From positions 10,354,001 to 10,418,000 of the forward strand of contig NC_090404.1 in assembly GCF_036365525.1 (NCBI RefSeq): a stretch of 64,000 bases of DNA. The letters are read 5' to 3'. A program made the translations under genes and the position numbers. Below are positions 43,192 to 62,816 of the stretch, in pieces. The DNA comes from Heterodontus francisci. Its lineage: Eukaryota. The notes beneath the pieces are model-generated. The model searched no databases, was not told the DNA's origin, and saw nothing but the letters and a program-made list of their open reading frames with translations. Numbering within the stretch: the first letter of the stretch is position 1; the number at the start of each line of letters is the position of its first letter.

Positions 43192-43675
43192 ATGGGGAAC
43201 CGTCTGACACCGCTTCTTATCATTCTATCACTTATCAGTAAGTATTTCCTTCCCAGTAAAAATTCATTCTCCCTCTGACTGCTGCAACCCAGCTGTTATC
43301 ATTGGTGAAAGGAAAGTGATGATGATGATGTTAATGATGTGATAATGTCTATTATTATTATTTTATATCAGAATGGAGTCACCAAGACACAGTGGAACAG
43401 TCGGTTTCTGAAATGAAGGTCGAAGAGGAAACCAATGTCACACTAAACTGCACCTTGAAAACAAATGATCGTAGCCCTGTAGTGTACTGGTACAGTCAGC
43501 ACCTCCAGCAGCCTCCACAGTACCTGTTTTATATCATTGCTGGTAGAGTAAACCGGAACCTGGGCTTCACTAACCGATTCAATTCCACGTTTAATAAAAC
43601 AACCAAGGTTACAGAACTAACGATCAGCAATGCCCTGATCTCCGACACCGCCGTGTATTTCTGTGCCATGAGCCC
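43192..43675 (+). CDS. TCR alpha/delta-type V segment, apparently functional (leader 43192-43237, V exon 43372-43675)
   Basis: Leader MGNRLTPLLIILSLI with GTAAGT donor; in-frame V with VTLNC, VYWYSQ, DTAVYFCAMSP; RSS follows. Confidence 0.92.
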
Positions 43676-43714
43676 CACACTGCTGCAGAGAGAAGCGGAT
43701 CCCGTACAAAAACC
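43676..43714 (+). other. 23-RSS
   Basis: CACACTG + 23 nt + ACAAAAACC. Confidence 0.95.
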
Positions 43715-43738
43715 CACACTGAGAGTTCACTTAGTCTT

Positions 43739-43805
43739 CACCAGAGGGCGCTCTCACACCGATAAACAAAAGCAATAAGGTGGCGTTGTTGACACCAGAT
43801 GGCGC
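43739..43805 (+). promoter_or_regulatory. Two tandem CTCF-like motifs just behind the RSS
   Basis: CACCAGAGGGCGC 43739-43751 and CACCAGATGGCGC 43793-43805. Confidence 0.7.
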
Positions 43806-44604
43806 ACTACCCGCACATGCGCAAATTCAGTGTTTTTGGCTGTAACGTCACTGTTAGTGACGCCCCAGACCTTTCTCAGCTGCTATGAATTGTGGGAGCC
43901 GCAGCCCTCCATAGCCCAGGCATTAAGGGAGTCAATCCAAACCCAATTTAAGAAGGGTCACCCGCCCGAAACGTTAACTCTGCTTCTCTTTCCACAGATG
44001 CTGCCAGACCTGCTGAGTGGTTCCAGCATTTCTTGTTTTTATTCAAACTTCCTTCCAGCCGGGAGCTGCCCGGGTCCCGACAGACTGCAGGTGTCCTTTT
44101 GAGCGGAGAGAATCACTGAGGTGCTGACCGCTCATCAATACAATCGAGGAAAGATGGATTGAAACAAAGGAAAGAAGCTCTACTGGTCCCTGTGACAACC
44201 GGCGGACAACAACAATAACCACCAGTGTGAGATTTCAAACAGCAAATAGAGGAGAAAATTACTCACAACGTAAGATGTGTAAATATGCAATTCTCTGCCA
44301 GAAAATGTTATTACTGACTCTGGCATTGACTCTTGCATAGGATTAAAGGAACTTATATTCTAGATACTTTTAATTTGTGGTCAACAATAACAAAATCCTT
44401 TGGATGTACAATGTACAATAAAATTGTCAGTCAGTCCGTTTATGATAAACTGAGGAAAATAAAGGGTGAAAGAATTGTCACCCTTCTCCATTAGGCCATT
44501 TCACTCTATAGTGACATTGGGCCATGAAATACAGTGATACCAGGAGATCACTTTCACAGTCGACATGTCTTAACACATTCAGTTTATGTATACGTTCGAG
44601 CCCT

Positions 44605-45020: not shown

Positions 45021-46205
45021 TCAGGAGCTGCAACAGGAAGGTGCTGGGATCGACTGAATAAAGGAAAAACTGCAAACGGCCTGTGGGTGTAAGACTCGTG
45101 TGTCTGTCATTAGCCCTGGTGGGATGGAACGGGTCTGTCTGTCACTAGCCTGTAATCTCAGTTTACCTCTTCCAATGTTTCTTACTGGGGGAACTTGTCG
45201 AGTTTCCTCAAACTGTTTTGATTGTTTCGAATCAAGGTAGATCCGGATTGTTTTGTTCCCCTTGTGCTCGGGGAACTGATCGATTAAACGTATGATAAAG
45301 ACGTGAAAGACAGCCTTGTATAAATTGTGAATTTACCAGTTAAGAGAGCTGCGGCTGTGAGGAATAAATAAAAAGTAACAGCCAACATGCTTGCAGAGAG
45401 TTGATGGCTGGTTGAGCTGAACGTATTGAAACTGGAATTGTTTTCGTTGGGACTTGAGAAGAGGCTGTTCGATATTCGGCTTCTCTACCAAATAGGTTCA
45501 TTTCTGGCAGGGTCAGCAGGTGACATCCAATTAGGCCAGGGGTCCTTAGTTCTTTAATTCGTTCACAGATCCTTTGTTCTCCAGTTCATCCAATTCAGCG
45601 CGTTAGTACCCTAATTCATCCAATCAGCTCAGAGGTCCTTTATTCCACAATTCATGCCATCAGAGCATGCTCGGCAGGCAGCCGAGTGAAATTATTCTCC
45701 TCACAATGGGAAACTGAATGGAGATTACACTCAATGTTGGCCCTTAAACAGGGTCAGTCTGTGAGTCTGGGCATGAGGAAAATAATTCATGTTGTCCAGG
45801 CATCTGTGCCGTTGAATCCCATTAAAACAGCTGCTCACTGCCCATTAGAACTTCCCACAGCCGACATAACAAGCTTGTTCTTGCTCTGGAGGTAATTGAG
45901 ACAGACAGCACCTTTCACTTGAATACAATAGGGAATGATTGACAGTTTTGACCAGAATGGCGGGGCGTCGCAACAAACGGACTTAGTGATTCTGACGTGA
46001 GCTGCTTATTAAAAAATGCAGCTTATTTCCATTAACAATATTTTAACCCTTCATAATAACATTAACACGAAGCAATTTCCATTTAAAATGAGTGGTTCGG
46101 TTACCGAAACTTTTTCTTTTATGCGTTTCTTCAGTAAAGTCACGGAATGCTGCTTCGAGGCTGAAACTCGTCTCCACACTGACACCAACTGAGTGAAGAT
46201 ATTCA

Positions 46206-46240
46206 GTGCCCTCTGCTGGCGACTACATGTGACTGCATGT
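46206..46240 (-). promoter_or_regulatory. CTCF-like motif with upstream TGCAGT module
   Basis: Minus strand TGCAGTCACATGTAGTCG-CCAGCAGAGGGCAC. Confidence 0.7.
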
Positions 46241-46976: not shown

Positions 46977-47394
46977 CATTTTTGTACTGACTGATTACGC
47001 CTCTGTAACAGTCTGGGGCTCAGTGCACAATAATACATGGCAGAGTCAGAGACAAGAGCGCCGGTGACTTTTAAATGAACCATGTTCTTGTCTTTCTCCA
47101 GATCAGCAGAGCACTTGGGAAATCTGGAGATTTATGGCCCTGTCCCATGCCGTATGTCCTCAGTAAATATCTGAGTTTCCCCCGGATACTGGATGTACCA
47201 TAAAGAGTCCTTCCTGAACCGTTAATTCAGGCAATTCCTGGAACACTGAATCGTCACCATTCGTTTCTGTAACAAAACATAGGAGTCAAAATCAAAAGAA
47301 TGAATACTACCCATGGAAGACACACTGGCCATTTACACATAGGCTCACCTGACAGCAAGACGATTATTATCGGTAAGAAACGTAGGAAGCACAT
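46977..47394 (-). pseudogene. TCR V pseudogene with intact leader and defective 23-RSS
   Basis: Leader MCFLRFLPIIIVLLS (47349-47394); V exon 47016-47266 lacks the first-Cys/CDR1 region and ends VSDSAMYYCALSP; RSS CAGACTG + 23 + ACAAAAATG; CRE-like TGACGTC ~47550. Confidence 0.88.
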
Positions 47395-56360: not shown

Positions 56361-56483
56361 GACTCTTGGGGAAACAAAACTCACCTCGTTGCCTGGGGTC
56401 TGATCCATGAAAGGAACTTTGTTATCTGACGCTCTCTGGTGGCTATGCGGAGAAGTGGTCAACTGGCAGTGAACGGTGTGCCA

Positions 56484-56650: not shown

Positions 56651-57074
56651 TTTAGTGTGCGAGAAATTCTGTGTTGTGAGATTAACTTGATCTGGCAGCT
56701 CCTGTTGACAGAAAGTTCGATTGGCGAGGTTCTGAATTTATATGCTGAGCAGAAACAAAGTTTTTAAAAAACTTTTAAGCTGAAGATTGGAAGAAGGAAA
56801 TGTATTCAATTATGGGTAAAAGATAGAGATAGACGATAATGAGGAGCAAGGAACCAGGGAAAGGGCAGAGAAAAACAAAATGGAGTTAAGCCATCACAGA
56901 TCGAATAAAAAGTTCATTTTTCTTTGAAATGCGTGTTGTAATTACAAACTAATATAACTGTACAATGAACATCGACTGCTGTTGTTGATTGTTGTGTCTT
57001 ATTGCAATTTTTAGAAGGTTCCTGCGACTCTTTCAGAGGAGGCAGAATTATTGCTTCTGTTTATCGCTGTGAGG

Positions 57075-57087
57075 GCGCCCCCTAGTG
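57075..57087 (-). promoter_or_regulatory. CTCF-like motif behind the pseudogene RSS
   Basis: Minus strand CACTAGGGGGCGC; positional homologue of 43739-43751. Confidence 0.7.
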
Positions 57088-57112
57088 AGCTGTAACTGGA
57101 TCTCTCAGTGTC

Positions 57113-57676
57113 GTTTTATATTCGGGATCCGCCATTTCTCTGCACCAGTGTGAGGCCCATGACACAGAAGTACACGGCAGTGTTAGAGATCAGGGTGCTG
57201 TGGATCATTAGCTGGGTAATCTTGGCAGTTTTACTAAAGGTGAAAGAGGTCAATGAAGTCGGGGTTCCGGTTTACTATCCCTCCACAGAGATAAAACACA
57301 TACTGTGGAGGATGCCCGGGGTGCTGACTGTGCCAGAATAGAAGTGTTTGTTTTCAAGGTACAGGTTAGTGTGATATTACTTCCCTCTTCAACCATCATT
57401 TCATGAACCGGCTGTTCTATTGTGTCTTGGTGGCTCCATTCTAAAACACAAAAAATAGTAACAATCACAATGAGCATCAACATCATATGGATCAATATCA
57501 CTGTCAAAACTACTATCACTATCATTTCACCTATAATAACAGCTCTGCTGCAGCAGACAAGGTGGGGGGGGGGGGGGGGGCGGGGGATGATGGGGAGTGA
57601 ATGGTTTTTTATTGGGAAGTAAATACTTACTGAGAAGTGTTAAAATAATGAGCAGTGGTGTGTGACGGTGCCACAT
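57113..57676 (-). pseudogene. TCR V pseudogene, inverted paralogue of the 43192 V
   Basis: Leader MWHRHTPLLIILTLL (57631-57676); WSHQDTIEQ...ITLTCTLKTN then frameshifts; NTAVYFCVMG; RSS CACACTG + 24 + degenerate nonamer. Confidence 0.9.
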
Positions 57677-61504: not shown

Positions 61505-61983
61505 ATGGGAATCCTCCTTGTTTTCATCCTGTGTGTCTGTTTACCCCGTGAGTACCAATCAAACAAACCGACATTGTGTGGATTTAATGTAAAGCTGCCC
61601 GAGTCCATCCGAATTACAGACATTGTCTCGGGTTTTAGTCTCGTTATGTGTTTCGGCTCTGATGGCCCATTAAACTCTCTCTCTTTAATTTCCAGGCTCT
61701 TTCAGTCAGTCAGTGACACAGACCCCGGGAGCGGTGACCAGGAAGGAGTGTCAGTCTCTCACCATCACCTGTGTTTACAATGGTGGTTATTGGGATTATA
61801 CTTTCCTAAATGGACATTTCTTCAGACAAACCCAGACCGGGACACAGTGGGAGCGGATCTCCAGCGGAGGCCGATTTGCTGTGTCGGTGAATAAGGCAGA
61901 AAAAAATTTTTCCCTGCGAATTCGGGATGTGAGAGTTGAAGACACCGCCACCTATTACTGTAAAGCTGAATACTGGTACAACA
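61505..61983 (+). CDS. NAR-TCR (IgNAR-like) V segment, apparently functional (leader 61505-61547, V exon 61696-61983)
   Basis: Leader MGILLVFILCVCLP with GTGAGT donor; SVTQTPGAVTRKECQSLTITC...ERISSGGRFAVSVNKAEKNFSLRI...EDTATYYCKA; CDR2 region absent as in VNAR; extra FR1 Cys. Confidence 0.92.
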
Positions 61984-62021
61984 CACAGTGATGGGCCTCG
62001 GCTTCCCACGGTACAAAAACT
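61984..62021 (+). other. V RSS with 22-nt spacer (23-class)
   Basis: CACAGTG + ATGGGCCTCGGCTTCCCACGGT + ACAAAAACT. Confidence 0.95.
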
Positions 62022-62336
62022 CTCACTGCAGATTATCACATGAAAAAGCGGAGTTAATCTGCCGGTGAACCCCACAGTTCCGCCTCGCACCGACTCCCCA
62101 CAGTCTAGTTTATAATGAGTTGGATTATTGCCGTTAACATCTTGAGTTTTATAAATGCCGAGTGTGCGCGGATGGTGATATCTTTCCCGGGATCGGTGTC
62201 AATGAATGGAGATTGGGAATGACTGATCCCAGTGACAAATCCCTAACACCAGATGGGATACTGATCTAACCGCTGGAATCGGGAACCGCATTCCCCGCCG
62301 TTAAACTAATGTCCCCACATCTCACCAAGTACCAGC

Positions 62337-62406
62337 GGATTTGAAGCTGTCTTGAAGCACAGTGTTTACTGGAATGGCCACAGTGGGTGAAACCTGAACA
62401 AATACC
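62337..62406 (+). other. D segment (62365-62378, TTTACTGGAATGGC) flanked by two 12-RSS
   Basis: GGATTTGAA + 12 + CACAGTG | D | CACAGTG + 12 + ACAAATACC. Confidence 0.92.
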
Positions 62407-62729
62407 TCTGCACAATTAAAATAGAAGCTCCCCGGGCTCGGTTCCCGAATTGTAGGGCTGATGCTATTATCGTTGTAATACGGCTTAATTTGATAGTAAT
62501 TTCCTCCTTTCTATTATCTTCGTCTGATATTTTCCTCCGTTTAAACGAAGCACCCATCCCCAGCCCGTGATCCTGGGCCATGTTACCAAGAGCTCAGAGT
62601 CTCACAAACACCAGTTTGAACAGAGAGGAATGTGAAACATGGAATTTTGTTTATTAATCTAAAACCCCTGGAATAATTGGGTTGTGTCTATAGCCTGGTG
62701 ATGTGTGGCCGGCAGGTTGAGGTGTTGGC

Positions 62730-62816
62730 AGTTCTTGCACCAGGCTGACTGAGAACGGTGTCACTGTGACACTGAATACGTGGATGGTTCCGGGACGGTA
62801 GTGACTGTCACAGCGG
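62730..62816 (+). other. J segment (62769-62816, TEYVDGSGTVVTVTA) with 23-RSS
   Basis: AGTTCTTGC + 23 + CACTGTG; xGxGT motif; phase-1 GTAAGT donor at 62817. Confidence 0.92.

What the first reader, a model, noticed from the sequence alone, without database searches (positions are those of the whole stretch)
43714..43805. CTCF-like motifs about 25 bp behind V RSSs, retained in the inverted paralogue
Seen: CACCAGAGGGCGC 24 nt after the nonamer, a second motif at 43793, and CACTAGGGGGCGC at the equivalent position of the decayed paralogue (57075-57087). Known: mouse D-proximal VH genes carry RSS-adjacent CTCF elements that promote RAG-scanning access. Inference: an equivalent RSS-CBE design operates at a shark TCR locus, suggesting ancient or convergent loop-extrusion control.
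Basis: partly seen in the sequence, partly recalled or inferred. Interest (0 to 1): 0.7.

Follow-up and report, generated by a model that had tools for sequence, protein, structure and literature searches.

The report
Shark TCR V-gene CTCF site, repeat-doubled
One family of shark T-cell-receptor V genes carries a conserved, likely CTCF-binding motif just behind its recombination signal, as some mouse antibody genes do, but this gene lies 7 Mb from and faces away from its J genes, dead copies keep the motif, and the second motif is part of a dispersed repeat, so the site likely helps fold the locus rather than serve mouse-style one-way scanning.

Summary
All three motifs are present at the stated coordinates. 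The V is an intact TCR alpha/delta segment, shark by inference.

Motif 1 is clade-wide, not locus-wide. It sits behind 52 of 62 members of one V clade, which mostly have a 24-bp RSS spacer, but behind only 1 of 99 other V segments on the contig. It is under purifying selection, even on pseudogene branches where the RSS decays at the flank rate.

Motif 2 is the start of a dispersed repeat, found behind only this V and one sister.

The mouse D-proximal model does not fit. This V is about 7 Mb from J and inverted, and 47 of 60 family cassettes face away from J. Best reading: a clade-inherited, likely CTCF-bound loop-extrusion impediment in a two-way (Igk-like) locus, arisen convergently. Binding and effect are untested.

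Also found: a 17-kb minisatellite rich in CTCF motifs, just 3' of the constant exon and mostly facing the V array.

The scan noted the RSS-side motif before on other DNA of this genome.

The parts
43192..43237 (+). Leader exon of an intact TCR alpha/delta V gene
   Evidence: ATG 43192, GT donor 43238; splices in frame to the V exon
43372..43675 (+). V exon ending Y-F-C-A-M-S; member of the 'CAMxP' clade
   Evidence: best PDB hits are TCR alpha/delta V domains, E 2.7e-14; tree
43676..43714 (+). RSS: CACACTG, 23-bp spacer (one base shorter than the clade's usual 24), ACAAAAACC
   Evidence: contigs of 4 other organisms carry the extra base behind 43693
43715..43734 (+). Conserved 20-nt linker (21 nt in most of the clade); partial, inconclusive match to the CTCF upstream motif
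   Evidence: 87% identity between subfamilies whose exons are 53% alike; upstream motif from PMC12885311
43735..43753 (+). Motif 1: clade-wide CTCF-like site (core 43739-43751), pointing away from the J/C end
43776..43862 (+). Fragment of a dispersed repeat that replaced the clade's normal 3' flank
   Evidence: 17 dispersed copies at 78-85% identity; alignment
43789..43807 (+). Motif 2: CTCF-like site carried in by the repeat (core 43793-43805)
   Evidence: 8 of 8 repeat copies examined score 10.5-19.7 bits at this place; behind only 2 catalogued V segments
46204..46222 (-). Strongest CTCF-like motif in the window (23.1 bits), 754 nt behind the pseudogene V at 47027
56427..56445 (-). CTCF-like motif (14.6 bits), 667 nt behind the paralogue's nonamer
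57073..57091 (-). Motif-1 equivalent in the paralogue (core 57087-57075), pointing toward J/C
57113..57152 (-). Paralogue RSS: heptamer kept, 24-bp spacer, decayed nonamer ATATAAAAC
57153..57429 (-). Paralogue V exon, frameshifted pseudogene, deletional orientation (upper bound approximate)

Best explanation
Motif 1 is a conserved, likely CTCF-bound site inherited with one clade of shark TCR alpha/delta V genes, and it likely acts as one of many pausing points for cohesin loop extrusion that fold a 10-Mb, two-way V array so that V and J ends would meet by short-range diffusion, not as a one-way scanning stop for its own V. Shown: the motif, its fixed offset, clade restriction, purifying selection that persists on pseudogene branches, V segments and motifs in both orientations, and J/C at the far end with motif clusters beside it. 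Inferred: CTCF binding (the motif is near-identical from lamprey to mammals, PMC5504073), cohesin stalling, and diffusion capture as in mouse Igk and Tcrb. Motif 2 is a later, probably incidental addition from a dispersed repeat. The likeness to mammalian VH sites is likely convergent.
For: (1) Clade restriction: 53 of 161 catalogued C34 V segments have an adjacent forward motif, 52 of them in one clade (support 0.993); 0 of 21 V on C5/C407. A re-test with the published consensus gives 48 of 53 versus 0 of 108. (2) Selection for a CTCF-like sequence: the 21 variant types seen cost 1.4 bits on average versus 3.1 for all possible changes (permutation p 0.0004; core only p 0.019). The core is 89% identical between subfamilies with 53% exon identity. 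(3) Independence from the own RSS: on pseudogene-only branches the RSS took 34 substitutions in 16 sites and flanks 138 in 70, but the 7 high-information motif sites took 3 (p 0.001 vs RSS; whole 12-site core 11, p 0.008). Cassettes also survive where the RSS or V is deleted (L170, L174). (4) Geometry: J and C lie at C34:3.18-3.34 Mb on the minus strand, with one C locus plus an identical copy on C1869; 47 of 60 cassettes face away (31 of 44 outside a 16-copy array); inversional V segments are intact as often as deletional ones (50 of 79 vs 36 of 70 without the array, p 0.18). (5) Motifs are dense near V genes: 150 in 618 kb versus 2 in 100 kb outside the locus, 78 plus and 65 minus outside the array. 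(6) Contigs of 4 other organisms cover the V end, RSS and motif 1; the two tabulated in detail keep the 13-bp core.
Against: There are no binding, Hi-C or repertoire data. The fixed offset to the RSS, and the pairing with an atypical 24-bp spacer (29 of 32 intact motif-bearing V vs 0 of 66 without), suit a role for the own RSS equally well; both traits were lost together in a nested subclade of 7. The whole ~110-bp 3' block is more conserved than the exon, which could reflect gene conversion. Igk-type diffusion needs strong RSSs, and none of the 103 mouse Vk has an RSS-proximal site (PMC11153149), whereas this clade's RSS looks non-consensus. The V sample (692 kb of about 10 Mb) was chosen by RSS patterns and by a query containing the motif, which may favour pseudogenes that kept it. 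Indels near decayed nonamers may inflate RSS counts. Blind in-locus picks held only 5 motifs in 100 kb. The matrix was recalled from memory.
Confidence: 0.5

Rival explanations
1. Mouse-like accessibility element: CTCF bound next to the RSS stalls cohesin and exposes this V's own weak RSS (CACACTG, mostly 24-bp spacer) to RAG, directly for deletional copies or after an earlier inversion has flipped the inverted ones.
For: Fixed offset and same strand as the V; clade restriction as in mouse VH; co-occurrence and joint loss with the 24-bp spacer; mouse proximal VH RSSs are weak without their sites.
Against: Not D-proximal: catalogued carriers lie 2.2-10.6 Mb from D, plus one more cassette at 0.5 Mb; 0 of the 8 catalogued V within 0.7 Mb carry it. 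Most face away from J. The site is kept by pseudogenes whose RSS is dead. Three carriers, including this V, have a 23-bp spacer and keep the motif. The spacer-motif link rests on one clade and one joint loss.
Confidence: 0.27
2. The 3' block is conserved for another job: an insulator between tightly packed, oppositely oriented V promoters, or a site for a different factor that includes the conserved linker.
For: The linker is nearly as conserved as the core (0.87), unlike mouse, where only its length is kept; partial match to the upstream motif tied to enhancer blocking; head-to-head and tail-to-tail V pairs are common.
Against: Variation tracks the degenerate positions of the CTCF motif; the upstream-motif match is only 6 of 10 letters.
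Confidence: 0.12
3. Neutral passenger: a chance GC-rich motif copied by V duplication and homogenised by gene conversion.
For: All carriers but one descend from one ancestor, so positional enrichment is essentially one event; motif 2 shows that such motifs arrive by repeat insertion; the whole 3' block is similar between subfamilies.
Against: High-information sites change far less than flanks on both branch classes (3 vs 138 and 1 vs 104; p<0.001); substitutions are biased to tolerated bases; the motif's CpG is kept in 33 of 36 copies; the cassette is present in 4 other organisms.
Confidence: 0.11

Closest known systems
RSS-associated CTCF sites of mouse proximal and human VH genes (PMC6746451; VH81X-CBE as reviewed in PMC7930373)
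   Same: CTCF core at a fixed short distance behind the nonamer, one strand relative to the V, predictable from the V tree, CpG near the 3' end of the core.
   Different: TCR alpha/delta rather than IgH; 21-22 nt versus 17-19 (mouse) or 19/48 (human) to the equivalent base; linker sequence conserved; not D-proximal; mostly facing away from J; kept in pseudogenes; 5 and 3 mismatches to the mouse and human VH-specific motifs.
Mouse Igk locus architecture (PMC11153149, PMC5859386)
   Same: V segments and CTCF motifs in both orientations over megabases, which excludes pure one-way scanning.
   Different: No Vk has an RSS-proximal site, Vk RSSs are strong, and Igk site orientation does not track V orientation; here it does.
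Mouse Tcra/d CTCF sites, including TEA-CBE and EACBE (PMC5859386, PMC7515734)
   Same: Same locus type; many motifs among the V genes; motifs between the J clusters and 3' of the constant gene.
   Different: Mouse sites are mostly upstream of V promoters and 129 of 144 face J-C; here they are split about evenly, one clade has RSS-side sites, and the 3' element is a 17-kb minisatellite rather than two motifs.
Repeat-borne CTCF sites (mammals and lamprey; PMC5504073)
   Same: Motif 2 sits at the start of a dispersed repeat whose copies carry the motif.
   Different: The repeat class was not identified, and binding was not shown.

Membership tests
CTCF-binding element (general) | Match to the CTCF core consensus beyond chance | tested here: met
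   p about 7e-7 by a recalled matrix; 1 mismatch to the printed consensus; shuffles
CTCF-binding element (general) | Constraint concentrated on high-information positions | tested here: met
CTCF-binding element (general) | Upstream (ZF9-11) motif | tested here: inconclusive
   6 of 10 letters at a 9-nt gap, compared by eye
CTCF-binding element (general) | CTCF/cohesin occupancy | not testable with these tools
   no ChIP or binding data
Mammalian RSS-associated VH CBE | Fixed distance 17-19 (or 48) bp behind the nonamer | tested here: inconclusive
   fixed, but 21-22 nt to the equivalent base
Mammalian RSS-associated VH CBE | One orientation relative to V transcription; restricted to V clades | tested here: met
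   (strand convention for 'pointing' is recalled)
Mammalian RSS-associated VH CBE | At most 2 mismatches to the VH-specific motifs | tested here: not met
   motif 1 has 5 (mouse) and 3 (human) mismatches
Mammalian RSS-associated VH CBE | D-proximal position (mouse) | tested here: not met
   7.05 Mb from D/J; 0 of 8 catalogued proximal V carry it
Mammalian RSS-associated VH CBE | Faces the recombination centre on a deletional V | tested here: not met
   this V is inversional; 47 of 60 cassettes face away
Mammalian RSS-associated VH CBE | Typically absent from pseudogenes | tested here: not met
   kept under constraint on pseudogene branches
Mammalian RSS-associated VH CBE | Adjacent V usage depends on the site | not testable with these tools
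   needs mutation and repertoire data
Igk-type diffusion locus | Intact V segments and CBEs in both orientations | tested here: met
   62 of 91 plus and 36 of 70 minus V intact; motifs 78 plus / 65 minus outside the array
Igk-type diffusion locus | V-facing anchors next to the recombination centre (Cer/Sis-like) | tested here: inconclusive
   V-facing motifs at C34:3,292,036 and 3,396,638 and the 3' minisatellite; function unknown
Igk-type diffusion locus | Strong RSSs and real inversional joins | not testable with these tools
   the clade RSS is non-consensus; no usable repertoire data

The most novel reading that the evidence does not exclude
Sharks independently evolved a CTCF/cohesin system for a 10-Mb, two-way TCR alpha/delta locus: V pseudogenes are retained as carriers of CTCF sites, one clade couples an RSS-side site to a weak 24-bp-spacer RSS, repeats add new sites, and a 17-kb minisatellite with about 40 strong V-facing motifs behind the constant gene acts as a super-anchor like the Igh 3' CTCF cluster.
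Probability: 0.25. Interest if true: 0.75.

Novelty: new variant of a known kind. Interest (0 to 1): 0.48.

Why it matters
Loop-extrusion control of V(D)J recombination is worked out in mice. If these sites bind CTCF, the oldest lineage with RAG-based receptors uses the same parts in a combination mice do not show: RSS-side sites on TCR V genes in a locus with mixed orientation. That gives a natural test of whether such sites need one-way scanning, whether they offset weak RSSs, and whether dead V genes persist as architecture. Without binding data it remains a sequence-level prediction, and the core motif was already noted elsewhere in this genome by the scan.

Tried and rejected
Expression: no RNA holder listed. 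In guessed-RNA run X5, depth falls from about 1400 over the V end to about 60 over the RSS, but X8 shows no such fall and no V-J junction appeared among the listed loose ends; this was not used as evidence.

Locus-wide RSS-CBE rule: rejected (1 of 99 non-clade C34 V segments).

Motif 1 as part of a dispersed repeat: rejected; 60 of 60 cassette matches lie on C34 between 3.84 and 13.89 Mb. The window's own site, with a 1-bp-shorter linker, is not among them.

A second, oppositely oriented constant gene of this type: not found. The J pattern is lossy (12 matches), and the delta constant exon was not located.

Strict spacer-motif coupling: rejected; three carriers have 23-bp spacers.

A DNA search with the minisatellite was not scored, so diverged copies elsewhere are not excluded.

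Literature: searches listed no paper on CTCF at shark receptor loci. CTCF occurs 0 times in the main texts of PMC12227049 and PMC5931798. Two wanted papers (the primary VH81X-CBE paper and a shark genome paper) were not held, and one guessed id gave an unrelated paper. Most subscription papers are unsearched, and no supplements were read; Tables S1 and S3 of PMC6746451 could bear on species coverage.

One script stopped with an error after printing most of its output; the remaining part was rerun.

Full report
What the locus is. The window is G000:C34:10,354,001-10,418,000. The gene before the motifs has a leader at 43192, an in-frame V exon and a 23-RSS, and its best solved relatives are TCR alpha/delta V domains. 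A NAR-TCR-like V-D-J set of RSSs at 61,984-62,768 (the label is recalled) points to a shark. J segments and an Ig C1-type constant exon lie at C34:3.18-3.34 Mb on the minus strand. The exon is single-copy apart from an identical copy on C1869; its alpha identity is inferred from position. The window V is therefore about 7.05 Mb away and would join by inversion. The 'inverted paralogue' is the one facing J, and it is a pseudogene.

The observation. All three motifs are at the stated coordinates. They score p 7e-7, 7e-7 and 2e-6 with a recalled CTCF matrix and differ by one base each from the consensus printed in PMC6746451. Shuffles put one such site in the 100-nt flank at 0.0002.

How general it is. 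I catalogued 182 V segments in 759 kb of fetched DNA: 161 on C34, 9 on C5 (gamma-like) and 12 on C407 (beta-like; both labels inferred from the V ends). Hits ending before query residue 80 were dropped (236 hit clusters gave 182 V ends). An adjacent forward motif was found in 53 of 161 and in 0 of 21. 52 carriers fall in one clade of 62 (support 0.993); the exceptions are a nested subclade of 7, one truncated copy and two decayed copies. One unrelated pseudogene has its own site at +39. The clade also has an atypical RSS: 29 of 32 intact carriers have a 24-bp spacer versus 0 of 66 intact non-carriers. The nested subclade lost both traits, but three carriers, including this V, have 23 bp. A linker-plus-motif pattern matches 60 times in the 6-Gb genome, always on C34 at 3.84-13.89 Mb, 47 times facing away from J.

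Selection. In 36 non-redundant copies (of 54), the motif core is 89% identical between two subfamilies whose exon ends are 53% alike. Observed variants fall on tolerated bases (p 0.0004), and the motif's CpG is kept in 33 of 36 copies. On pseudogene-only branches the RSS changes at the flank rate (2.1 vs 2.0 substitutions per site), while the high-information motif sites change at 0.43 (p 0.001). The site is thus maintained regardless of whether its own V can recombine, unlike mouse proximal VH pseudogenes. Caveats: the sampling is not blind, indels may inflate RSS counts, and the conserved linker and flank allow for gene conversion. Contigs of four other coded organisms cover V end, RSS and motif 1 and carry the 24th spacer base, but none covers 43798-43851. 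In the two tabulated closely, no variant reaches 15% in the 13-bp core; laying needs 80% likeness, which favours conserved copies.

The second motif. Behind 43775 the window departs from the clade's flank. That stretch matches 17 dispersed copies (78-85% identity; 12 contigs in all) that begin at the motif. All 8 copies inspected carry a CTCF-like motif there and share 100-380 bp with each other. Among the catalogued stretches only this V and its sister at C34:9,235,094 have it, and a contig of coded organism B spans both motifs with 4 differences and 1 gap. It is a repeat-borne addition, not part of an RSS design.

Locus architecture. Strong motifs (p<1e-5) number 150 in 618 kb of V-targeted DNA, 5 in 100 kb of blind in-locus picks and 2 in 100 kb outside the locus; the window has 0 in its V-free first 43 kb and 5 in the last 21 kb. 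Many sit at family-specific offsets and flip with their V, giving 78 plus and 65 minus outside a tandem array. Inversional V segments are intact at least as often as deletional ones. About 17 kb 3' of the first constant exon lies a 42-bp minisatellite of about 410 units (C34:3,150,434-3,167,655) with 41 V-facing and 7 opposite motifs at p<1e-5. All 22 genome-wide copies of its best 19-mer are there, as are 112 of 113 copies of a 23-mer within the mapped bounds. The region holds many other minisatellites, so chance is not excluded.

Mechanism. One-way RAG scanning uses convergent RSSs and, in mouse Igh, fails on inverted V segments. A locus where over half of the sampled intact V segments are inverted needs diffusion capture as in Igk or Tcrb, or prior inversions. 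I therefore read motif 1 as a likely CTCF site that slows loop extrusion across the array (0.5). A mouse-like boost for the own weak RSS is the main rival (0.27), and the two can coexist. Binding, looping and usage are all inferred. The absence of the motif behind the sampled IgH-like V segments (0 of 8) and all other families favours convergence with mammalian VH sites.

Literature seen. PMC6746451: parts 1-3 of 8 of the text. PMC10772921, PMC5859386, PMC11153149, PMC7930373, PMC7515734, PMC12885311, PMC5504073, PMC12227049 and PMC5931798: passages only. No supplements. In mouse Tcra/d the sites are mostly upstream of V promoters and 129 of 144 face J-C. Searches listed nothing on CTCF at shark receptor loci. 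Earlier scan notes on other parts of this genome reached a similar reading of the RSS-side motif; they are not independent support. Among the notes listed in those two look-ups I saw none on the repeat origin of motif 2, the pseudogene-branch test or the minisatellite.

Verdict. A real, selected motif and a new variant of a known element. Interest 0.48.

Noticed in passing
G000:C34:3,150,434-3,167,655 (L163, L142): 42-bp minisatellite of about 410 units, about 17 kb 3' of the first TCR constant exon; 41 motifs at p<1e-5 face the V array and 7 face away; exact unit words were found only here. Candidate 3' super-anchor.
   Followed up: partly
G000:C34:3,292,036 and 3,396,638 (L131, L140): V-facing CTCF-like motifs (16.7 and 17.3 bits) between the two J clusters and among the most proximal V segments; positions recall the mouse TEA-type and V-D anchors.
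   Followed up: no
window 61,700-62,800: NAR-TCR-like mini-cluster: V with 22-bp-spacer RSS (61984), D-type 12-RSS (62379), minus-strand 23-RSS before a J (62768).
   Followed up: no
G000:C34:8,685,000-8,724,000: Tandem array of 16 near-identical clade V genes at 2.56-kb spacing, all with the motif and all inversional.
   Followed up: partly
CAMxP clade, e.g. L004:1807-1846: 24-bp RSS spacer and CACACTG heptamer fixed in most of the clade; the extra spacer base is also seen in 4 other organisms.
   Followed up: partly
L115-L122: Unclassified dispersed repeat whose start carries a CTCF-like motif; a possible genome-wide source of sites.
   Followed up: partly
G000:C34:9,244,899 and 5,521,242 / 9,342,321: Unrelated V segments with their own downstream motifs at +39 (17.3 bits) and +158/+202 (23.5 bits); possible independent gains.
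   Followed up: no
G000:C34:6,700,000-6,731,000: Four near-identical IgH-like V(-D) units in alternating orientation inside the TCR V array; none has the RSS-side motif.
   Followed up: no
e.g. G000:C34:8,412,085 and 8,414,311: Recurrent head-to-head V pairs share an intergenic CTCF-like motif (about -1600 from one RSS, -750 from the other), so many clade V genes sit between divergent motifs; the window V lacks the upstream one.
   Followed up: partly
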